This document shows, one piece after another, positions 11,929 to 19,958 of a stretch of DNA of 20,000 bases (the stretch's first letter is position 1; each line of letters starts with the position of its first letter). Below the pieces are notes generated by a model, which was given only the letters and a program-made list of their open reading frames with translations, did no database searches and was not told the DNA's origin. The position numbers and the translations under genes are program-made. The DNA lies in IMG/VR virus record IMGVR_UViG_3300005669_000002, positions 61,888-81,887 of that record; one strand, written 5' to 3'. This stretch comes from an uncultured virus (IMG/VR IMGVR_UViG_3300005669_000002). Taxonomy: Duplodnaviria; Heunggongvirae; Uroviricota; Caudoviricetes.

Positions 11929-13314
11929 CAGGGAAGGGCGGGATGTCTGAAAGCCCTGTCTCTTTAGAGCAGGGATGAAAGACGACTCGTGCGAATTTAT
12001 TCGCATACCGTCTTTAACCAATGTTTTTCCTTGTTGATTCATCATTTTTGCGCTATAATAGTTAGCGTAACTCGATTGATCCTGATGCTAGTCTTTGAGT
12101 TTAAAGCCTACGGAAAGCCCAAACAGTTCGCAGCTATTGATGAAGCGATTCGTACCGTGCAGTTTATTCGGAATAAGTGCATCCGTTTGTGGATGGACAA
12201 CCCGAAAACTAATAAGTATGACTTGAGTAAGCAAAGCGCGATCTTGGCTCGTGAATTTCCGTTCGCTGATCAACTCAATTCAACTGCTCGTCAAGCAGCG
12301 ACAGAACGCGCTTGGACTGCCATATCTCGATTTTATGACAACTGCAAAGCTAAGATTTCTGGCAAGAAAGGTTATCCTAAATTCCAGAAAGATAATCGCT
12401 CGGTTGAGTACAAAGCGTCGGGATGGAAGCTTGCAGGCGATCGTAAATCGATCGCGTTCACCGATAAGAAAGGTATTGGCAGACTGAAAATGAAGGGTAC
12501 TCGCGACCTAAATTTCTATCAGCCAGACCAGATTAAGCGAGTGAGATTGGTAAAGCGAGCAGACGGCTATTACGTTCAATTTTGCATCAAGGTAGATCGA
12601 GAAGAGAAGATCGAACCAACGCATAAAACTATTGGTTTAGATGTTGGCTTAGAGTCTTTCTACACTGATTCACTCGGTAATAAAGTCGAGAATCCTCGGT
12701 TTTATCGGACGGGTGAACAAAGGATGAAGCGGGCGCAACGCCTTGTTTCTCGCAAAGTAAAAGGCTCTAGAAATAGACGTAAGGCTAGAGTTAAATTAGC
12801 TAGAGTTCACCTCAAAATAAGTAGACAACGTAAAGACCACGCTGTAAAGTTGGCGCGGTGCGTAGTTGCATCGAACGATGTCATAGTCTATGAAGATTTG
12901 CGGATTAAGAATCTGGTTAAAAATCATTGTCTGGCTAAGTCAATTAATGACGCTGGCTGGTATCAATTTCGAGTTTGGCTAGAGTATTTTGGTAAGGTTT
13001 TTGGACGGATAACTATTGCTGTCAATCCTGCCTACACGTCCCAAGAATGCTCTCGCTGTGGCACTGTGGTTAAGAAATCTCTTTCAACTCGCACACACAT
13101 TTGTCAGTGTGGCTGTCGATTGGATCGCGACCATAATGCTGGTATCAACATCCTTAACTCAGGATTGGGTACAGTAGGGCATACTGGAACCTCAATGCTA
13201 GACATTGGAATCGCTTGGGGAGATTTGTCCTCTACTGCCGTTGGTGCAAACCTGCGACAGCAAGACGGGTCATTGAACCAAGAATCCCCGTCTCTTTAGA
13301 GCGGGGAGTGTCAA
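11929..13314 (+). mobile_element. IS200/IS605-family element, tnpB-only (non-autonomous)
   Basis: TTAC at 11925-11928; left hairpin AAAG-CCCTGTCTCTTTAGAGCAGGG (11950-11974); right hairpin GAAT-CCCCGTCTCTTTAGAGCGGGG then TCAA end. AAAG/TTAC and GAAT/TCAA match the IS608 guide/cleavage pairs. Confidence 0.85.
12085..13299 (+). CDS. tnpB: RNA-guided endonuclease TnpB, 404 aa
   Basis: RuvC residues GLDVGL, VYEDL, DRDHNA; Zn ribbon CSRC..CQCG; start MLVFEFK; TTGTTG-17-TATAAT upstream. Confidence 0.95.
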   Translation: MLVFEFKAYGKPKQFAAIDEAIRTVQFIRNKCIRLWMDNPKTNKYDLSKQSAILAREFPFADQLNSTARQAATERAWTAISRFYDNCKAKISGKKGYPKFQKDNRSVEYKASGWKLAGDRKSIAFTDKKGIGRLKMKGTRDLNFYQPDQIKRVRLVKRADGYYVQFCIKVDREEKIEPTHKTIGLDVGLESFYTDSLGNKVENPRFYRTGEQRMKRAQRLVSRKVKGSRNRRKARVKLARVHLKISRQRKDHAVKLARCVVASNDVIVYEDLRIKNLVKNHCLAKSINDAGWYQFRVWLEYFGKVFGRITIAVNPAYTSQECSRCGTVVKKSLSTRTHICQCGCRLDRDHNAGINILNSGLGTVGHTGTSMLDIGIAWGDLSSTAVGANLRQQDGSLNQESPSL

Positions 13315-14838: not shown

Positions 14839-15045
14839 CTACGACTTGACTGGCTTAATCTGCCAGTCTTCTACATCGTCTTGCCCCAAAGACAGAGGAA
14901 GATTTTCATAGCCTGAATCTTCAGGAAATTCAGGTTGACAGACATAAGTTTCAAACTCAACCTCATGAGATTCAACCTTAAAGGTGAATTGAGTCTGATC
15001 GTCTGGGGCGATCGCCGTGTATTCTTGGCCGATTTTTAACTCCAT
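14839..15045 (-). CDS. small highly acidic beta-rich protein, 68 aa (candidate anti-defence)
   Basis: AAGGAGCAAAGCAATG start at 15045; MELKIGQEYTAIAPDDQTQFTFKVESHEVE. Confidence 0.8.
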   Translation of the reverse strand: MELKIGQEYTAIAPDDQTQFTFKVESHEVEFETYVCQPEFPEDSGYENLPLSLGQDDVEDWQIKPVKS

Positions 15046-15079
15046 TGCTTTGCTCCTTAAATTAATTAACTGTGTTGTG

Positions 15080-15106
15080 TGGGCAGTTAATGGGATGCCC
15101 AGCCCA
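15080..15106 (-). ncRNA. H-type pseudoknot, copy D (covariant stem 1)
   Basis: UGGG-C-UGGGCA-U-CCCA-UUAAC-UGCCCA. Confidence 0.75.
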
Positions 15107-15114
15107 CAAACCAA

Positions 15115-16146
15115 CTAGATCAATGGATTCACAAAGCCCACTACCTCATGGGGAAGCAGCAAGGAAGGGGTGTTGAATCCACTTCCCCCAACAGCAGTGC
15201 GACCGCCCCAGCCATCAGGAGTAAACCCGTCTGCTGCTGCCATCTCAGCCTGAGTTAGGACGGGGAAAATCTTGGTCAAGTCAACCGCGTCCTGCCCCGG
15301 ATGTCCTGGGACAGTGCCAAGGGTGTACTGAAACCCCCCGTTGTTGTGGCTGCGACGGGTCAAGGTGACTGGCTTGTAGCCCATTTCTGGGTCTAATTTT
15401 GCCCACGCCATCAGTGTGGCACGGGGATCGACGTAACCCTTGATCTCCGACGTATCGGCATAAGGAATGCCTTCAACAAATGAGCAGCACCCCTTCTCTA
15501 GCAGCTCATCCCGTTTAGCGAGAAGGCTCTCAAAATACTTATCTGCTTCTCCCATCTCCCCTGGCCAGGGACGTTCACCCCGGACAGCCGCGATGATGTG
15601 TTCCACGCTTTGACGAAACGCCGTGGAATAGTAGAGCATCCGCTGCTCTTTGCTCCACTCTTTGCGATCCTTTGGAAGACCCATTTCCTCGCGAAGGGCG
15701 TCCGAGGAGATTTTCATGGCAGCGACTACTTTGAATGCCCAGTCGGGATTGACTTCATCAGCCGGATCCACGCAAAGGTGGTCGCACTCGTGTGCGATCG
15801 CTCTGAGCATTGAGAAGGCTTCGGTACCTGCCCCCCCCGCTAAGTCGCTGGGGCGTAACTGCAAGTACGCGGCAGCCACTACTGAGTCTGCGTCCAACAG
15901 AGTACTCACGCAGACCCAACTACCGCCCATAGCTTCTGGGATAGATCGATCGTCCCATGCTCCCTTCATGGGGGGCATTTCATCAATCTGAACCTTGGCA
16001 TTGCTGGTCTTGTTGTGGTGGTCGTACCACAAGTCCCCCTCCCGTGACTCCCATCCCGGTACTGTGCCATCCAGCATGGCGATCCGGTAGCCCGCATCGA
16101 TAAATGCCTGCAAATCTTCTAGTTCGGTGGTGATGATGTATTCCAT
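15115..16146 (-). CDS. DHH-like phosphoesterase/nuclease with permuted motif order, 343 aa
   Basis: WYDHH, LDADS, HECDH and C-terminal WGGRTAVGGS (DHHA1-like glycine motif); AAGGAGCAAGGCAATG start at 16146. Confidence 0.65.
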   Translation of the reverse strand: MEYIITTELEDLQAFIDAGYRIAMLDGTVPGWESREGDLWYDHHNKTSNAKVQIDEMPPMKGAWDDRSIPEAMGGSWVCVSTLLDADSVVAAAYLQLRPSDLAGGAGTEAFSMLRAIAHECDHLCVDPADEVNPDWAFKVVAAMKISSDALREEMGLPKDRKEWSKEQRMLYYSTAFRQSVEHIIAAVRGERPWPGEMGEADKYFESLLAKRDELLEKGCCSFVEGIPYADTSEIKGYVDPRATLMAWAKLDPEMGYKPVTLTRRSHNNGGFQYTLGTVPGHPGQDAVDLTKIFPVLTQAEMAAADGFTPDGWGGRTAVGGSGFNTPSLLLPHEVVGFVNPLI

Positions 16147-16176
16147 TGCCTTGCTCCTTGTATAAAACGTGTCGGC

Positions 16177-16204
16177 TAGGCAGTTTTCAGTCATGCCCAG
16201 GACT
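16177..16204 (-). ncRNA. H-type pseudoknot, copy C
   Basis: AGUC-C-UGGGCA-U-GACU-GAAAAC-UGCCUA (one G-U pair). Confidence 0.75.
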
Positions 16205-16209
16205 CAGAG

Positions 16210-16332
16210 CTAAATTTCTACAAATCCTTGAAAATTGCACGTATCACACCCACCACCATCACACGTAGGGCAGGACTGCTTGGGATTTGCAGCCCATCCC
16301 AGTTCCTCAAGGAACTGCTGTGAGCCTTCCAT
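16210..16332 (-). CDS. 40-aa zinc-finger microprotein (not in ORF track)
   Basis: MEGSQQFLEELGWAANPKQSCPTCDGGGCDTCNFQGFVEI*; DnaJ-type CxxCxGxG-CxxCxxxG; fills the intergenic gap. Confidence 0.7.
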   Translation of the reverse strand: MEGSQQFLEELGWAANPKQSCPTCDGGGCDTCNFQGFVEI

Positions 16333-16343
16333 ATCCGTACATA

Positions 16344-16604
16344 CTATTCAGCTTTGGTGAAGCCAAAATAATGAACGCTCTGTTGGTCGTTGCTGCGCTC
16401 AACGAACACCCGATCTGGCTCGTTGCGAATTTTGCCGCGAATGTCCTCAACCCAGTCAGGGCAATCTTCCGAACCTAACTCGCAAACATCTCCTGCACAT
16501 CCATCTAGGATGTTTGCGTCATCACAAATGCCGTCATTATCTGCAACTGCCTCGTACCCAAAACCTGAGGCACAAGGTTTGATTGAAAAGTAAGTGACTA
16601 GCAT
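16344..16604 (-). CDS. small acidic protein, 86 aa (candidate anti-defence)
   Basis: AAGGAGAAGCAATG start; Asp/Glu/Cys-rich. Confidence 0.75.
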   Translation of the reverse strand: MLVTYFSIKPCASGFGYEAVADNDGICDDANILDGCAGDVCELGSEDCPDWVEDIRGKIRNEPDRVFVERSNDQQSVHYFGFTKAE

Positions 16605-16658
16605 TGCTTCTCCTTTTTTCTGAACTTTGCAATTCGATGTCTTGTTGTGTCTGTTGCG

Positions 16659-16686
16659 TGGGCAGTTTTCAGTCTTACCCAGGACT
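16659..16686 (-). ncRNA. H-type pseudoknot, copy B
   Basis: AGUC-C-UGGGUA-A-GACU-GAAAAC-UGCCCA (one U-G pair). Confidence 0.75.
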
Positions 16687-16691
16687 GAAAA

Positions 16692-17009
16692 CTATGACAC
16701 TCGCTCCAGGATGCCAAATTCGTAGCCAATCTCCTCAATCTCATCACGACTGAGAATTTTGCCCTCTTGAGGACGGCCCTTTAGCTTAAAGACAATTGCT
16801 TTTTCGCACACAGCTTGGCTGTACACCATCCGATTGACAGGAACTTCAACCCCTAACAACTCCGTCAGAATTTCCGCTGTAGAAGCGTGACCCACCGCAC
16901 TCTGCCACTCAGATCCGGAAATCAAATCACGCACTTCTTGAAGTGTTGCCGAGTCGTAGCCGTAGCAACCGTAGTTGGTCAAAATACTTGTGTTCAAGAT
17001 CGTAATCAT
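16692..17009 (-). CDS. acrIII-1: DUF1874 / YddF-like viral ring nuclease (anti-type III CRISPR AcrIII-1 family), 105 aa
   Basis: ILNTSIL...SAVGHASTAEILTELLGVEVPVNR...AIVFKLKGRPQEGKILSRDEI matches the DUF1874 (STIV B116, B. subtilis YddF) signature, including the catalytic GH and conserved Arg. Confidence 0.88.
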   Translation of the reverse strand: MITILNTSILTNYGCYGYDSATLQEVRDLISGSEWQSAVGHASTAEILTELLGVEVPVNRMVYSQAVCEKAIVFKLKGRPQEGKILSRDEIEEIGYEFGILERVS

Positions 17010-17043
17010 TGCTTTCGCTCCTTAAATTAACTAGTCTGTGGCA

Positions 17044-17071
17044 TGGGCAGTTTTCAGTCTTGCCCAGGACT
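17044..17071 (-). ncRNA. H-type pseudoknot, copy A
   Basis: AGUC-C-UGGGCA-A-GACU-GAAAAC-UGCCCA. Confidence 0.75.
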
Positions 17072-17080
17072 TGAGTGAAC

Positions 17081-17290
17081 CTAAACTTTTACGATGAAAT
17101 ACTTCATGATGGGATCTTCATCCCAACTGTCGTCCCAGTCGGGAAGCCCCGTTGAAATTGGCCCAAACCAAAAGTCGCCTGGGTCTTTCTTGTTGTACCA
17201 GGCCACAACATAGCCTGATTGGCCCTTGTACCGATCGCGGACTTGTTCTGCGATCGCATCGTTCACATTCATATTGTTCTCCTTACCCAT
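17081..17290 (-). CDS. small acidic Trp-rich protein, 69 aa (63 aa from ATG 17272); first gene of the operon
   Basis: Two tandem AAGGAG..ATG starts at 17290 and 17272. Confidence 0.75.
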   Translation of the reverse strand: MGKENNMNVNDAIAEQVRDRYKGQSGYVVAWYNKKDPGDFWFGPISTGLPDWDDSWDEDPIMKYFIVKV

Positions 17291-17375
17291 TGTCTTGCTC
17301 CTTGTTCTCGCTACACTACTCAACCCATCCCATCCGAAGGAACTTTCTCTTCCCTGTCCCTTCTTCTATGTCTCC

Positions 17376-17749: not shown

Positions 17750-19200
17750 GTGAACTACCAGACACCAACCGCTTAGGCGGTATGGTGCTGGCTTCCCAAT
17801 TCATCGGCAACCGCCTCTACAGTCGTAGACTTGCGCCCAAACCGCTTTGGTCTTACATTGCCTCCAAGGGCAGTAGCGCTGGTTCCCAACGCCAATATCC
17901 GCAAGCCTTCATCTCTGATGTTCATTGCTGCATTCACGTCTCTATCATGGTGCTTCTGGCAATGAGGGCAGAGAAACGCCCGTACTGAGAGATCCATTTT
18001 CGGAATCGGCAGCAGTGTCGTATTGCAGAGATGAGACGACGGGAAGAATCGCCCAATTTCGAGGTAAATTTTACCGTCTTGCTCTGCCTTGTACTTGAGC
18101 ATGGTTTGAAACATCCCCCAACCTGCATCAGAAATTGACTTGGCTAGGTTGTGATTCTTGACCATGTTTTTTACTGCCAGATCTTCCACCACAATCACTT
18201 GGTTCTCGTTTACTATCTTGCGGGATAGCTTGTGAAGGAAGTCTTCTCTCACTCGTGAAATCTTGGAATGTACTTTCGCAAGTGCCCGTTTTGCCTTGCG
18301 GCGCTTGCTGGTCGTCTTGTCCTTTTTGCGGGATAGCTTGCGTTGCTTCCGTTTCAGGTTGCGTTCATGTTTTTTGAGATGCTTCGGGTTGTTGAACTTG
18401 GAGCCATCAGAAGTGACGGCAAAATCAATTAATCCAAGGTCAACCCCAATCGCTTTCCCTTCACTGCTAGATTCGGGCTTATCAATCCCATCATCTAGCA
18501 GAACGGAAGTATAATAGCGACCATCCGGAGTCCTAGACACGGTAACGGTCTTGATTTTGCCGAGACAATCCCGGTGGATTTTGGCTTTCACCACCCCCAG
18601 CTTGCCAGGAAATTTGATCTCAGCATTACTCAGAATTTTGACGTTCTGTGGATACTGAATAGACTGGCGACCATGCCGATTTTTGAACGTCGGGTATTGC
18701 GCCCGACCATCAAAAAAGTTGATAAACGCTTGAGACAGATTCAGTACGGATTGCTGCAAGCATTGAGAATAGCATTCTTTCAACCATTCATATTCTTGCT
18801 TCCAGACTGGGATCTGTTTCTTCATGTCGTAGGCTGACAAGCCTTTACCCGTCTCTTTATAGGTTGACGACATCACCGAAAGAGACTGATTCCAAACCCA
18901 GCGCACACACCCGAAAGCCTGGGCAAGATGGGCTTCCTGTTCATCCGTTGGGTAAATTCTGGCTTTGACTGCCTTTAACATGATTACGACCTTTATCACG
19001 CTTATGCAACTATGATAACATCTTGTTGTTGGTTTGTCCCTGATTCTGGGAAACTGGTTTACAGCGTGGGAGATTTGCTCGTTTCCTCCGTCTCCCCTTC
19101 CCGCGCCTTCGGCATAGGTCAAGGGAACGTCGTCAACTCGCTCGCATTCATCCCGACGCTCACCCGAAGCGGGTAGAGCGCGGGGCTTCTGCTGCTTCAG
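17750..19200 (-). mobile_element. second IS200/IS605-family tnpB-only element
   Basis: Left end (TTAG)CTGAAGCAGCAGAAGCCCCGCGCTCTACCCGCTTCGGGTGAGCGTCGGG hairpin; right end GAAGCCAGCACCATACCGCCTAAGCGGTTGGTGTCTGGTAGTTCAC; no tnpA; left boundary uncertain by a few nt. Confidence 0.85.
17773..18981 (-). CDS. tnpB: RNA-guided endonuclease TnpB, 402 aa
   Basis: MLKAVKARIYPT...FGCVRWVWN N-terminal HTH; RuvC GVDLGL, VVEDL, DRDVNA. Confidence 0.95.
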   Translation of the reverse strand: MLKAVKARIYPTDEQEAHLAQAFGCVRWVWNQSLSVMSSTYKETGKGLSAYDMKKQIPVWKQEYEWLKECYSQCLQQSVLNLSQAFINFFDGRAQYPTFKNRHGRQSIQYPQNVKILSNAEIKFPGKLGVVKAKIHRDCLGKIKTVTVSRTPDGRYYTSVLLDDGIDKPESSSEGKAIGVDLGLIDFAVTSDGSKFNNPKHLKKHERNLKRKQRKLSRKKDKTTSKRRKAKRALAKVHSKISRVREDFLHKLSRKIVNENQVIVVEDLAVKNMVKNHNLAKSISDAGWGMFQTMLKYKAEQDGKIYLEIGRFFPSSHLCNTTLLPIPKMDLSVRAFLCPHCQKHHDRDVNAAMNIRDEGLRILALGTSATALGGNVRPKRFGRKSTTVEAVADELGSQHHTA

Positions 19201-19243: not shown

Positions 19244-19573
19244 ATGATTGATAGAATAAAGAAGCCGCTAACGGCAATGAGTCGTGAAGGCGTGGCTTTG
19301 ACTTTTCAAATAGCAGAGTATTATTGCGTCTCTGAATCCGTAGCAAGAGACAATGTTCGTCGGCATCGAGACGAATTTGAGTTTGACGGGCTGAGACTGC
19401 TCCGTGGTAAAGCGTCAAAGGATGCGTGTGAGACAATCTCACACGGTTCTATTTCTGGCGCAGAAAAAACGTCAAATCTTACAATTTGGACTCCTCGCGC
19501 AGCATTAAGACTTGGAATGCTGCTTTTCCGGCCAGCCCCAGCCCTTGCACCTCCTCTAGATGCCATGCTCTAG
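19244..19573 (+). pseudogene. probably C-terminally truncated phage antirepressor-like (ORF6N-like) DNA-binding domain
   Basis: IAEYYxV..VRRHRDEFExDG..LRGK..LTIWTPRAALRLGMLL matches a family that, as I recall, continues RDSxVAKxVR; here it turns into a Pro-rich tail. Confidence 0.55.
19321..19566 (-). pseudogene. regulator N-terminus (RGGARAGAGRK, AT-hook-like) fused to antisense read-through
   Basis: Start overlaps the upstream gene's end; after residue 14 the sequence is the antisense of the convergent gene. Confidence 0.5.
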
Positions 19574-19924
19574 CGGAGAGACTAGAGATTTATTGATCTC
19601 GTCAATTAACCGCTCCACCCATTCAGCGATTATACTGTTCCACTCCTCATCCCAATTGGAGAGTGAGTCGAACGCTTCCTTCCAATGCGAAAAGGAATCA
19701 CCACACTGAACGCCATCAGCGAAGAAAGCCCAGCCATCCAGTTCACCACACTGAACGCCATCAGCGAAGAAAGCCCAGCCATCCAGTAACCTACCATTCT
19801 CGAAAATGCACTGCCCCAAGCGGGCAGGCGAATCGGCGTGAAACTTCCCATCGATTAACTTAGCCCAAATGCCCCAAGAGGCATCGTATTGAATGGAGCG
19901 GACTAAATCTTTTAATGTAGCCAT
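19556..19924 (-). CDS. acidic Trp-rich hypothetical protein with an internal 15-aa duplication, 122 aa
   Basis: AAGGAG 8 nt before ATG 19924. Confidence 0.75.
   Translation of the reverse strand: MATLKDLVRSIQYDASWGIWAKLIDGKFHADSPARLGQCIFENGRLLDGWAFFADGVQCGELDGWAFFADGVQCGDSFSHWKEAFDSLSNWDEEWNSIIAEWVERLIDEINKSLVSPLEHGI
19698..19787. repeat. perfect 45-bp tandem duplication
   Basis: TCACCACACTGAACGCCATCAGCGAAGAAAGCCCAGCCATCCAGT twice. Confidence 0.95.
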
Positions 19925-19958
19925 CGTCTTCACTCCTTGCCTTGTTCTCTACAATTCA

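What the first reader, a model, noticed from the sequence alone, without database searches (positions are those of the whole stretch)
15080..17071. Four covarying compact RNA pseudoknots punctuate gene junctions of an anti-CRISPR operon
Seen in sequence: a 27-28-nt minus-strand element occurs at 17044, 16659, 16177 and 15080. Its form is stem 1 (4 bp), C, stem 2 (6 bp), 1 nt, stem 1', (G/U)(A/U)A(2-3)C, stem 2'. Copy D replaces stem 1 AGUC/GACU with UGGG/CCCA (three compensatory pairs). The stem 2 changes in copies B and C give G-U wobbles only on the transcribed strand, which argues for an RNA structure rather than a DNA site. Each copy lies 5-9 nt after a stop codon and upstream of the next RBS. 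Known: a 1-nt loop 1 across a 6-bp stem 2 is the geometry of the T2/T4 gene 32 pseudoknot. Inference on function: an exonuclease barrier or processing signal that yields stable monocistronic anti-defence mRNAs; a decoy RNA like the pseudo-ToxI of phage phiTE; or a cassette-shuffling repeat like the T4-type PeSL elements. I cannot assign it to a named Rfam family.
Basis: partly seen in the sequence, partly recalled or inferred. Interest (0 to 1): 0.9.

Follow-up and report, generated by a model that had tools for sequence, protein, structure and literature searches.

The report
Widespread phage pseudoknot after stop codons
The four repeats are copies of a tiny, strongly conserved RNA pseudoknot that many unrelated phages place a few bases after a gene's stop codon or just before a tRNA, most likely to cap and protect the upstream message; no RNA catalogue I searched lists it.

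Summary
Observation confirmed. Four minus-strand copies (17044-17071, 16659-16686, 16177-16204, 15080-15106) have the form N4-C-UGGGYA-N-N4'-(N)NAAAC-UGCCYA. They are the only four in this 81.9-kb phage genome.

They belong to a large family. Stem 1 was fully paired in 76 of 114 unique hits (33 different sequences), against 11 of 120 in a bacterial-genome control. With stem-2 positions left free, 53 of 54 variants were fully compensated. L1 = C in 80 of 80 and L3 ends in AAAC in 80 of 83. Rfam 15 gave no match.

I verified copies in named phages of Mycobacterium, Arthrobacter, Corynebacterium, Bacillus, Moorella, Lactobacillus, Paracoccus, Nostoc and Synechococcus, in crAss-like phages and in a microvirus.

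The motif mostly starts 5-6 nt after a stop codon, often of capsid, SSB or Hsp20 genes. In several phages it ends 3-6 nt before a tRNA or tmRNA 5' end. Related phages carry a strong hairpin in the same slot.

Best reading (about 0.4, untested): a non-terminating 3'-end cap or decay barrier for the upstream RNA. The "anti-CRISPR operon" label rests on one DUF1874 gene.

Earlier notes of this scan (e1-5778907, e1-5805471) may describe the same motif on other DNA.

The parts
17044..17071 (-). Pseudoknot copy A: S1a 17071-17068, L1 C 17067, S2a 17066-17061, junction 17060, S1b 17059-17056, L3 17055-17050, S2b 17049-17044. It starts 9 nt after the TAG at 17081-17083. The next ATG is at 17009.
   Evidence: R1 43.4 bits
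16659..16686 (-). Pseudoknot copy B (S2 UGGGUA/UGCCCA, one U-G wobble). It starts 5 nt after the TAG of the DUF1874 gene. The next ATG is at 16604. An alternative extended stem-1 hairpin is possible.
   Evidence: R1 43.6 bits
16177..16204 (-). Pseudoknot copy C (S2 UGGGCA/UGCCUA, one G-U wobble). It starts 5 nt after the TAG of the 40-aa ORF. The next ATG is at 16146.
   Evidence: R1 40.4 bits
15080..15106 (-). Pseudoknot copy D (S1 UGGG/CCCA, L3 UUAAC, 27 nt). It starts 8 nt after the TAG of the 343-aa ORF. The next ATG is at 15045.
   Evidence: R1 28.3 bits, E 3.8e-6
17081..17290 (-). Small ORF upstream of copy A (63-69 aa depending on the start); no family found.
16692..17009 (-). 105-aa DUF1874 / STIV B116-like protein, between copies A and B. 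This is the family of the viral ring nuclease AcrIII-1; that family name is recalled.
   Evidence: Pfam PF08960 6.2e-24; PDB 2j6b AFV3-109 2.4e-15; PADLOC Csx16 1.6e-23
16210..16604 (-). Two small ORFs (86 aa at 16344-16604; 40 aa at 16210-16332) between copies B and C; no family found.
15115..16146 (-). 343-aa ORF between copies C and D; no family found.
14839..15045 (-). 68-aa ORF downstream of copy D; no family found.

Best explanation
The four elements are members of a large, uncatalogued family of compact H-type RNA pseudoknots carried by many unrelated phages. The fold is: stem 1 of 4 bp with variable sequence; L1, a single invariant C; stem 2 of 6 bp, UGGGYA/UGCCYA, which covaries; a one-base junction; and L3 of 5-6 nt or more ending in an invariant AAAC.

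Proposed mechanism (inferred, not shown). The pseudoknot is a non-terminating 3'-end cap for the RNA upstream of it. RNA polymerase reads through it, because most copies have no U-tract, so downstream genes or tRNAs are still made. The transcript is then cut downstream, either by RNase P where a tRNA or tmRNA 5' end follows 3-6 nt later, or presumably by an endonuclease in the G-poor single-stranded spacer elsewhere. The triplex-stabilised knot then stops 3'-to-5' exonucleases from entering the upstream cistron.

The knot sits as close to the stop codon as it can (5-6 nt) without needing to be unwound by the terminating ribosome. That leaves no naked RNA between the last ribosome and the cap. 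In the window this would make the small early or accessory cistrons, including the DUF1874 gene, individually stable messages.
For: Shown here:
(1) The structure is real. With only stem 2 specified, stem 1 is fully paired in 76 of 114 unique viral hits and 3 of 4 paired in 24 more, with 33 distinct 5' arms. The figure is 11 of 120 in the bacterial-genome control.
(2) With stem-2 position 3 or 4 forced off G and the partner positions left free, 53 of 54 unique instances are fully paired: AG/CU 47, AA/UU 4, AU/AU 1, GU/AC 1.
(3) On alignment A4 (62 distinct rows), 98.5% of cells are paired and 6 of 10 pairs change on both sides. Slid controls give at most 38% paired.
(4) L1 is C in 80 of 80 hits and L3 ends in AAAC in 80 of 83 when those positions were left free.
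(5) The tie is to the upstream gene. Of 98 hits with an upstream ORF, the stop-to-stem-1 spacer is 5 nt in 28 and 6 nt in 17. Distances to the next start are broad.
(6) Of 81 upstream proteins, 7 are major head proteins, 9 are Hsp20 (one lineage), 4 are SSB, 2 are proteases and 48 have no family. The 88 downstream proteins are heterogeneous.
(7) A tRNA gene starts 3-6 nt after the knot in L017, L036, L044, L052 and L063, that is 5 of 120 viral loci. The same holds in Nostoc phage NMeng1 and Arthrobacter phage Molivia, where the order is SSB stop, 6 nt, knot, 3 nt, tRNA-Gly. In crAss-like phages cr7_1 and cr124_1 the knot ends 3 nt before the acceptor 5' strand of the tmRNA coding piece. In these cases the knot would stay on the upstream product after RNase P cleavage.
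(8) Relatives have an ordinary strong hairpin in the same slot. In Streptomyces phage BRock it follows the capsid gene at -32.7 kcal/mol with a U-run, and the capsid is 71% identical to L062's. In Mycobacterium phage Patience it follows gp86 at -30.7 kcal/mol and ends 3 nt before tRNA-Gln, where its relative Labelle has the knot.
(9) A co-directional ORF follows within 150 nt in 92 of 94 CM hits. This fits an internal, read-through element.

Recalled knowledge, not from any call: the ribosomal helicase boundary near +11; 3' exonucleases need a single-stranded toehold of several nt; terminator and REP hairpins stabilise upstream mRNA.
Against: No RNA end, half-life or nuclease assay supports it, and no RNA run holds this phage.

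The knot's S1/L3 A-rich triplex architecture is the one known (recalled) to resist 5'-to-3' unwinding by ribosomes. It is not known to resist 3'-to-5' exonucleases.

The near-invariance of L1 C, AAAC and much of stem 2 across phages of at least five host phyla may point to a specific partner rather than plain stability.

In the crAss tmRNA the knot lies in the excised intervening segment, where a protected 3' end has no obvious client.

In one lineage (L040, L060, L091) the knot follows a tRNA by 12 nt and precedes RtcB, so there it looks like a 5' element. In S-EIVl one copy precedes the SSB gene.

11 of 76 copies are followed by a U-run and could terminate transcription.

Gene packing in phages makes 'after a stop' and 'before a start' hard to separate.
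Confidence: 0.4

Rival explanations
1. Processing ('punctuation') signal. The knot is itself recognised by an RNA-processing enzyme, such as RNase P or Z acting on it as a tRNA-like minihelix, or RNase E. It defines where polycistronic RNA is cut, as tRNAs punctuate mitochondrial transcripts.
For: It occupies a tRNA-like slot at the head of tRNA arrays, with the same 3-6 nt spacing as between the tRNAs themselves (L052, L063). It lies next to RNase P sites in at least 8 loci. Its stacked helices of about 10-11 bp resemble an acceptor/T minihelix (inference). Invariant loop bases fit enzyme recognition.
Against: There is no conserved 3' NCCA: positions after stem 2 are mixed C/U/A. There is no T-loop-like element. 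Cleavage at the knot's 5' side would leave capsid or SSB mRNAs unprotected 5 nt after the stop codon. Nothing was tested.
Confidence: 0.15
2. Ribosome roadblock or translational insulator. The knot is placed at the mRNA entry channel of the terminating ribosome. It stops read-through or post-termination scanning ribosomes, so that translation of a very highly expressed upstream gene is uncoupled from its neighbour, or a downstream tRNA is shielded.
For: The 5-6 nt spacer equals the spacing of frameshift-stimulating pseudoknots (the comparison is recalled). The architecture is of the BWYV type that resists ribosomal unwinding (recalled). Upstream genes are often highly expressed.
Against: The knot also occurs with no ORF upstream: in the tmRNA intervening segment, after tRNA-Lys, and in NMeng1 about 100 nt after the previous CDS. 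A stop codon already ends translation. No frame is extended beyond the stop.
Confidence: 0.12
3. Binding site or decoy for a specific partner, either a conserved host protein or a small molecule. This would make it a translational operator or riboswitch for the next gene, or an abundant RNA decoy that titrates a host factor.
For: L1 C, AAAC and much of stem 2 are almost invariant across very different phages. The topology resembles small pseudoknot aptamers such as preQ1-I (recalled). One copy lies before an SSB gene in S-EIVl, which recalls the T4 gene 32 operator.
Against: Downstream genes are unrelated to each other: DNA polymerase, endolysin, HNH, RtcB, dCTP deaminase, tRNAs. That argues against a gene-specific switch. 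There is no Rfam aptamer match at E up to 10. With one-base L1 and junction there is little room for a pocket (inference).
Confidence: 0.1
4. 5'-side barrier or leader for the downstream RNA. It would block 5'-to-3' decay (RNase J, RNase E scanning) like a viral xrRNA, or serve as a standby or leader element for the next cistron.
For: A start codon usually follows 20-40 nt later (61 of 119). The spacer is G-poor, 8% G against 20% upstream. The tRNA-Lys/knot/RtcB lineage fits. An earlier scan note likens a similar motif to plant-virus xrRNAs (e1-5778907).
Against: Where a tRNA or tmRNA piece follows, RNase P would detach the knot from the downstream RNA. Spacing to the start codon is loose while spacing to the upstream stop is tight. 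No Rfam xrRNA family matched.
Confidence: 0.07
5. Transcriptional attenuator or terminator after highly expressed genes.
For: 11 of 76 copies are followed by at least 6 U in 9 nt, including the microvirus copy. BRock has a terminator-like hairpin in the same slot.
Against: 65 of 76 copies lack a U-run. tRNAs and a tmRNA piece that must be transcribed start 3-6 nt downstream. Four copies in series within 2 kb of one operon would silence it.
Confidence: 0.05
6. DNA-level element: a single-stranded-DNA recombination site or cassette boundary, like integron attC sites or T4 PeSLs.
For: It is found in consecutive intergenic regions of small accessory genes (window; G003, G008, G017). Weinberg 2017 (passages read) describes the same arrangement for the unrelated 'DUF1874 motif'. 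Similarity between Labelle and Patience ends exactly at the stop codon before the knot.
Against: The wobble positions are G-U only on the sense strand: 27 U-G and 7 G-U among 62 rows. Orientation always matches the genes. It occurs in core modules after capsid and SSB genes and inside a tmRNA gene. Covariation alone cannot tell RNA from ssDNA.
Confidence: 0.03

Closest known systems
Intercistronic and 3'-terminal stabilising stem-loops of bacterial and phage mRNAs (REP elements, terminator hairpins, T7 RNase III-site hairpins); recalled from general knowledge
   Same: They sit just after a stop codon inside or at the end of polycistronic RNA and are proposed to protect the upstream cistron. 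Here, BRock and Patience carry such hairpins in exactly the slot where relatives carry the knot.
   Different: This element is a 27-28 nt pseudoknot with invariant loop bases rather than a long GC hairpin. It mostly lacks a U-tract. It is conserved in sequence across phages of many host phyla.
MALAT1 / MEN-beta 3' triple helix followed by an RNase P-processed tRNA-like structure (recalled)
   Same: A compact A-rich triplex-type structure lies immediately upstream of an RNase P cleavage site, so that the upstream RNA would end in the protective fold. Here a tRNA or tmRNA 5' end lies 3-6 nt after the knot.
   Different: That system is eukaryotic, nuclear and non-coding, with a U-A-U triple helix that needs an A-rich tail. 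No homology is implied. Protection here is not shown.
Luteovirid (BWYV-type) frameshifting pseudoknots (recalled)
   Same: About 28 nt, H-type, with a C in L1, a one-base junction (usually U here) and an A-rich L3 over stem 1. The distance of 5-6 nt from the codon in the A site is also the same.
   Different: There is no slippery heptamer: a stop codon takes its place. No -1, +1 or read-through frame is extended, with medians of 11-14 codons. Stem 2 is 6 bp rather than 3 bp.
T2/T4 gene 32 mRNA operator pseudoknot
   Same: An H-type pseudoknot with a one-base L1 over a 6-7 bp stem 2, in phage mRNA, followed by an unstructured G-poor stretch.
   Different: The gene 32 knot is a 5' leader element of one autoregulated SSB gene. 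Here the knot usually follows genes (SSB among them) and precedes unrelated genes or tRNAs. Only one S-EIVl copy precedes an SSB gene.
Plant-virus class 3 exoribonuclease-resistant RNAs (xrRNA-D; Steckelberg et al. 2018, PMC6299227, Results read)
   Same: A small hairpin whose apical loop pairs with downstream sequence; conserved bases just upstream of the 3' pseudoknot strand; intergenic or 3'-UTR placement; nuclease blocking without proteins.
   Different: xrRNA-D has P1 and P2 with conserved L1 and L2B and blocks 5'-to-3' Xrn1. No Rfam xrRNA model matched here. The direction of protection I propose is the opposite one.
'DUF1874 motif' of Weinberg et al. 2017 (PMC5737381, passages read)
   Same: It is found in consecutive intergenic regions (RNA, ORF, RNA, ORF) and named after neighbouring DUF1874 genes. 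The window has a DUF1874 gene between two knots.
   Different: It is described as a multistem structure with a conserved internal loop and a possible attC-like ssDNA site. No Rfam family matched the window's DUF1874 flanks at E up to 10, apart from a chance mir-1537 hit.

Membership tests
Any Rfam 15 family | Covariance-model match at or near the family's gathering score | tested here: not met
   Whole window at E<=1: 0 matches. Window 16640-17090 at E<=10: only mir-1537, 16.8 bits against a gathering score of 63. Six named-phage loci at E<=1: only a tRNA and a weak Plastid-ycf2 hit.
H-type RNA pseudoknot (structural class) | Two interleaved helices, each supported by compensatory changes | tested here: met
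   Stem 1: all 4 pairs change on both sides. Stem 2: 2 of 6 pairs change on both sides and 3 vary by wobble. 98.5% of cells are paired, against at most 38% when slid. In the unbiased scan, 53 of 54 variants are compensated.
-1 frameshift or read-through stimulatory pseudoknot | A slippery site or leaky stop upstream, and an extended ORF in the new frame | tested here: not met
   In 68 instances the median open length beyond the stop is 11 codons (read-through), 14 (-1) and 12 (+1). No shared slippery heptamer appears in the printed 12 nt before the stops.
Intrinsic terminator | GC-rich hairpin immediately followed by a U-tract | tested here: not met
   Only 11 of 76 copies have at least 6 U in the 9 nt after stem 2. 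The window copies are followed by C/A-rich sequence.
T4-type gene 32 translational operator | Lies in the 5' leader of the phage SSB gene it regulates | tested here: not met
   SSB genes lie upstream of the knot in 4 of 81 viral loci and in Molivia. Downstream genes are diverse. There is one exception, in S-EIVl.
Type III toxin-antitoxin antitoxin RNA (ToxI-like) or pseudo-ToxI decoy | Tandem array of about 34-36 nt repeats next to, or mimicking those next to, a ToxN-type endoribonuclease gene | tested here: not met
   Copies are 385-1100 nt apart and separated by ORFs. No neighbouring ORF has a Pfam, PHROG or PADLOC toxin hit.
RNA anti-CRISPR / solitary CRISPR-repeat mimic | Sequence matches the repeat of a host CRISPR array, so it is host-specific and found in arrays in host genomes | tested here: inconclusive
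   Every genome contigs row shown (80 of 120 loci) had a single match, none in an array. The same sequence occurs in phages of Actinobacteria, Firmicutes, Cyanobacteria, Alphaproteobacteria and Bacteroidales. No host CRISPR array of this particular phage could be examined.
Plant-virus xrRNA-D | P1 and P2 helices with conserved L1/L2B, an apical-loop pseudoknot, and a halt of Xrn1 at the base of P1 | not testable with these tools
   No Rfam hit. Only one hairpin is present. Nuclease resistance needs a bench assay.
Integron attC site / 'DUF1874 motif' | Imperfect palindrome folded as ssDNA with R/L core sites and an integrase nearby; or a match to the Rfam DUF1874 model | tested here: not met
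   No Rfam match. No integrase among the ORFs scanned. The knot also lies in core structural and replication modules and inside a tmRNA gene.
Canonical tmRNA pseudoknots (PK1-PK4) | Aligned to the pseudoknot positions of the tmRNA model | tested here: not met
   In cr7_1 the knot falls in an insertion within the loop (intervening segment) between the acceptor strands of RF04321, not in modelled positions.

The most novel reading that the evidence does not exclude
Phages of nearly all major bacterial host groups, and at least one microvirus, share one protein-independent, 28-nt triplex pseudoknot that acts as a universal punctuation mark of polycistronic RNA. It would be a nuclease-proof cap that ribosomes stop just short of and that RNase P cuts just behind. 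This would be the first prokaryotic-virus counterpart of eukaryotic-virus xrRNAs and ENE-type 3' protectors, and a ready-made minimal mRNA-stabilising part.
Probability: 0.3. Interest if true: 0.88.

Novelty: new variant of a known kind. Interest (0 to 1): 0.8.

Why it matters
If the reading holds, this is a very small structured RNA that is conserved in sequence and shape across hundreds of phages with hosts in at least five bacterial phyla, yet is absent from Rfam 15 and from the literature I could search.

It would show that phages control the fate of individual cistrons with a dedicated pseudoknot rather than with hairpins. It would give a defined model for how compact RNA folds stop bacterial exonucleases or ribosomes. 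It would also explain a recurrent architecture: stop codon, 5 nt, knot, 3 nt, tRNA.

In practice a 28-nt, non-terminating insulator and stabiliser would be useful in synthetic operons.

Cultured hosts exist for direct tests: M. smegmatis with Labelle, Arthrobacter with Molivia, C. glutamicum with phi673, and Nostoc with NMeng1.

Tried and rejected
Recoding (frameshift or read-through): rejected, because no frame is extended and no slippery site is shared.

Special role of UAG: rejected. All four window stops are TAG, but TAG is the commonest stop among the 26 ORFs I checked (14 of 26), and in other phages TAA dominates (62 TAA, 30 TAG, 6 TGA).

CRISPR-repeat mimic: no arrays among the rows shown in the bacterial-genome scan, and the motif is not host-specific.

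Nested MFE folding says little for a pseudoknot.

Expression data: no RNA holder was listed for this phage.

Finding isolates by similarity: L077:1250-1600 gave no match. Protein look-ups with Hsp20 and SSB gave only distant relatives, which I did not follow. BRock, LuckySocke and Patience lack the motif.

Limits of model R1: it misses copies with a long L3, as in Molivia and Edson, so copy numbers are lower bounds.

Literature. Four answered searches found no description of this motif: pseudoknot/bacteriophage/intergenic/covariation/RNA motif; the motif's own RNA words; exoribonuclease-resistant/bacteriophage/pseudoknot/RNase J; pseudoknot/bacteriophage/PNPase/intercistronic/mRNA stability. 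Passages read in preprint 10.64898/2026.09.22.753630 and in PMC5737381 did not describe it either. Supplements of these papers were not read and could hold motif lists.

Earlier scan notes: look-ups by sequence and by place found nothing.

Not attempted: the RNA-virus check suggested by note e1-5778907, beyond listing the ORFs of two short contigs; R-scape; and the metagenome-contig scan.


Full report
THE OBSERVATION. The window is the last 20 kb of an 81,887-bp virus record with direct terminal repeats. Read on the minus strand, 14900-17300 holds a row of small co-directional ORFs. Four intergenic copies of one element follow the TAG stops of four of them:
- A, 17044-17071: AGUC-C-UGGGCA-A-GACU-GAAAAC-UGCCCA.
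- B, 16659-16686.
- C, 16177-16204.
- D, 15080-15106: UGGG-C-UGGGCA-U-CCCA-UUAAC-UGCCCA.

The spacers from the stops are 9, 5, 5 and 8 nt, and the next ATG follows after 34, 54, 30 and 34 nt. That includes the three compensated stem-1 pairs of copy D and the strand-specific wobbles of copies B and C.

The fixed-spacing pattern gives 3 matches against 0.18 expected, and 0 of 200 shuffles reach 3. A relaxed pattern finds exactly these four sites in the whole genome, all on one strand. TAG is simply the commonest stop in this window: 14 of 26 ORFs checked.

THE ELEMENT BELONGS TO A LARGE FAMILY. I scanned viral contigs with a pattern that fixes only stem 2 and the AAC before it. The four bases either side, which the pattern did not constrain, form a perfect 4-bp stem 1 in 76 of 114 unique hits and 3 of 4 pairs in 24 more. 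There are 33 different 5' arms.

The same pattern in 596 Gb of bacterial and archaeal genomes serves as a control. It gave 11 of 120 with a perfect stem 1, and most had 1-2 pairs. The few real ones lie in MAGs of Omnitrophota, Chloroflexota and Bacteriovoracaceae and in a Tianweitania isolate.

To test stem 2 without bias, I forced its third or fourth base away from G and left the partner positions free. Of 54 unique instances read from 75 loci, 53 were fully paired: AG/CU 47, AA/UU 4, AU/AU 1, GU/AC 1.

On a model-made alignment of 70 matches (62 distinct), 98.5% of cells pair and 6 of 10 pairs change on both sides. Sliding the partners drops pairing to 25-38%. One caveat applies: that alignment mixes pattern-selected sequences, and stem 1 is fitted by the model.

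Leaving the loops free showed that L1 is C in 80 of 80 hits and that L3 ends in AAAC in 80 of 83. The 12 nt after the knot are G-poor, 8% against 20% upstream.

The H-type pseudoknot on the sense strand is therefore as well supported as comparative analysis can make it.

IT IS NOT CATALOGUED. Rfam 15 gave nothing for the window at E<=1. For the DUF1874 flanks at E<=10 it gave only a chance mir-1537 hit, caused by copy B's extended hairpin. For six named-phage loci it gave only a tRNA. Four literature searches and the passages I read did not describe it. Supplements were not read. Two earlier notes of this scan (e1-5778907, e1-5805471) describe a small, widespread phage pseudoknot after stop codons in other genomes. 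It may be the same motif, but no sequence is shown, so I could not confirm that.

WHERE IT OCCURS. In the 30 viral records searched whole, all chosen because they held a hit, copy numbers at E<=0.01 were 1 (18 records), 2 (4), 3 (3) and 4 (5). Copies are often clustered within a few kb, as in the window.

Short BLAST queries, then direct reading of the sequence, verified the knot in these named phages:
- Moorella phage MTATph1, Lactobacillus phage phiEF-1.1 and Corynebacterium phage phi673.
- Synechococcus phage S-EIVl (three copies read) and Nostoc phage NMeng1.
- A Microviridae genome, Sigmofec virus UA08Rod_4626.
- Mycobacterium phage Labelle, Arthrobacter phage Molivia, Paracoccus phage ParMal1 and Bacillus phage Edson.
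- The crAss-like phages cr7_1 and cr124_1. The cr124_1 copy rests on the BLAST match and the annotation; I did not read its sequence.

Model R1 misses Molivia and Edson because their L3 is longer, so all counts are lower bounds.

CONTEXT. Of 119 unique viral hits, 98 have an upstream ORF of at least 40 codons ending within 60 nt. The stop-to-stem-1 spacer is 5 nt in 28, 6 nt in 17, and 4-11 nt in 69. Only one is shorter than 4. The next start is 20-39 nt away in 61 of 119, with a long tail.

Upstream proteins (81 scanned): 7 major head proteins, 3 of phrog_1221, 9 Hsp20 (one lineage), 4 SSB, 2 proteases, single minor-head, decoration and adaptor proteins, and 48 with no family. Downstream proteins (88 scanned) are a mixture: DNA polymerase 3, RtcB 2, dCTP deaminase 2, endolysin, HNH, scaffold, and mostly nothing.

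So the motif is not specific to anti-defence operons. In the window only the 105-aa ORF is recognisable: PF08960/DUF1874, AFV3-109/B116-like, PADLOC Csx16.

THREE FURTHER OBSERVATIONS BEAR ON FUNCTION.

(a) A tRNA gene begins 3-6 nt after the knot in L017, L036, L044, L052 and L063, that is 5 of the 120 viral loci scanned. The same is true in NMeng1 (3 nt) and in Molivia, where the order is SSB stop, 6 nt, knot, 3 nt, tRNA-Gly. In six of these seven, position -1 is U.

In cr7_1 the knot lies in the intervening segment of a permuted tmRNA (RF04321, 66.4 bits against a gathering score of 47). It ends 3 nt before the acceptor 5' strand of the coding piece.

All of these are RNase P sites (established knowledge), so after cleavage the knot stays on the upstream RNA with a 3-6 nt tail.

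(b) Where relatives lack the knot, the same slot holds a conventional strong hairpin. Streptomyces phage BRock, whose capsid is 71% identical to that of L062, has a -32.7 kcal/mol hairpin with a U-run after the capsid gene. Mycobacterium phage Patience has a -30.7 kcal/mol hairpin that ends 3 nt before tRNA-Gln, where its relative Labelle has the knot. The nucleotide similarity between the two stops exactly at the stop codon.

(c) No -1, +1 or read-through frame is extended beyond the stop. Medians are 11-14 codons over 68 instances.

INTERPRETATION. The tight lower bound of the spacer matches the distance at which a ribosome with the stop codon in its A site need not unwind downstream structure. 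That figure, a helicase boundary near +11, is recalled. The knot therefore sits as close to the ORF as possible without being melted at each termination. It also sits immediately before cleavage sites.

Taken with (b), the most economical reading is a 3'-end cap. Polymerase reads through, since 65 of 76 copies have no U-run, and the RNA is cut downstream. The knot then keeps 3'-to-5' exonucleases out of the upstream cistron, while a 3-6 nt tail offers them no toehold (recalled enzymology). The invariant L1 C and the AAAC of L3 fit the major-groove and A-minor triples of compact luteovirid-type pseudoknots (recalled). Such triples would give a 28-nt element the stability of the 16-bp (Patience) and 14-bp (BRock) hairpins it replaces.

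I put this at about 0.4. Every mechanistic step after 'the fold exists and sits there' is inference.

WHAT SPEAKS AGAINST IT.
- There are no RNA data of any kind, and no RNA run holds this phage.
- This architecture is known to resist 5'-to-3' unwinding, not 3' exonucleases.
- The sequence invariance may mean a specific partner.
- The tmRNA intervening segment has no obvious need for protection.
- One lineage places the knot after a tRNA and before RtcB (L040, L060, L091).
- One S-EIVl copy precedes an SSB gene.
- 11 of 76 copies have a U-run.

The rivals, with my odds: a processing signal recognised as a tRNA-like slot (0.15); a ribosome roadblock or insulator (0.12); a binding site or decoy (0.10); a 5' barrier or leader (0.07); an attenuator (0.05); a DNA-level recombination site (0.03).

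COMPARISON WITH KNOWN SYSTEMS. The element works most like intercistronic stabilising hairpins and, in the tRNA-adjacent cases, like the MALAT1 triple helix with RNase P arrangement. It looks most like BWYV-type pseudoknots and shares the one-base L1 geometry of the T2/T4 gene 32 knot. It is a member of none of these: it fails the defining features of frameshift signals, terminators, the gene 32 operator, ToxI arrays, attC sites and every Rfam model tested.

VERDICT. This is a real, widespread and apparently undescribed phage RNA motif. Its structure is established comparatively, its function is inferred, and cultured systems exist in which to test it.

Noticed in passing
L340:1206-1233 (crAss-like phage cr7_1) and L341 (cr124_1): Both crAss-like phages carry a permuted (two-piece) tmRNA gene (RF04321, 66.4 bits; ARAGORN tag DNVNNIVDYTNVA*). 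Its intervening segment contains a copy of the pseudoknot that ends 3 nt before the coding piece. A tRNA-Cys overlaps the 3' end of the ARAGORN call.
   Followed up: partly
window 11989-13299 (+) and 17773-19122 (-): Two TnpB-like ORFs (OrfB_IS605 plus the Cas12f1-like TNB domain) bracket the small-gene operon. A 25-nt repeat (11951-11975 and 13283-13307, 88% identical) flanks the first one and may mark the ends of the IS element.
   Followed up: no
window 19698-19787: A perfect 45-bp tandem duplication lies inside the 125-aa ORF 19556-19933 (-) and duplicates 15 residues in frame.
   Followed up: no
window 16210-16332 (-): A 40-aa ORF with a CPTCDGGGCDTC motif (CxxCxGxG-CxxC, zinc-ribbon or DnaJ-like). 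It overlaps nothing and is followed by copy C.
   Followed up: no
window 15041-15065, 16142-16166, 17006-17030 (also 17287-17305 and 316-334): The ribosome-binding blocks after the knots are themselves repeats (minus strand: UUAAUUUAAGGAGCAAAGCAAUG-like). The whole intergenic unit of knot, CA-rich spacer and RBS is therefore paralogous.
   Followed up: no
window 16659-16695 (-): Copy B can also form an extended stem-1 hairpin of about 11 bp (UUUUCAGUC.../...GACUGAAAA; -19.9 kcal/mol for the 56-nt segment, z -3.6). This hairpin competes with stem 2 and caused the spurious mir-1537 hit.
   Followed up: partly
L342 (Mycobacterium phage Labelle) against L346 (Patience): Nucleotide similarity between these Patiencevirus genomes ends exactly at the stop codon of gp85/gp86. 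Beyond it, Labelle has the pseudoknot and Patience has a 16-bp hairpin abutting tRNA-Gln. The intergenic module has been swapped.
   Followed up: partly
L017:78-153 (-): ARAGORN calls a tRNA with anticodon CUA (labelled Pyl, so a possible amber suppressor) in a viral contig with eight tRNAs, one of which abuts the pseudoknot.
   Followed up: no
window 14900-17300: The octamer GCGATCGC (recalled as the HIP1 palindrome of cyanobacteria) occurs at least three times in this stretch, which hints at a cyanobacterial host.
   Followed up: no
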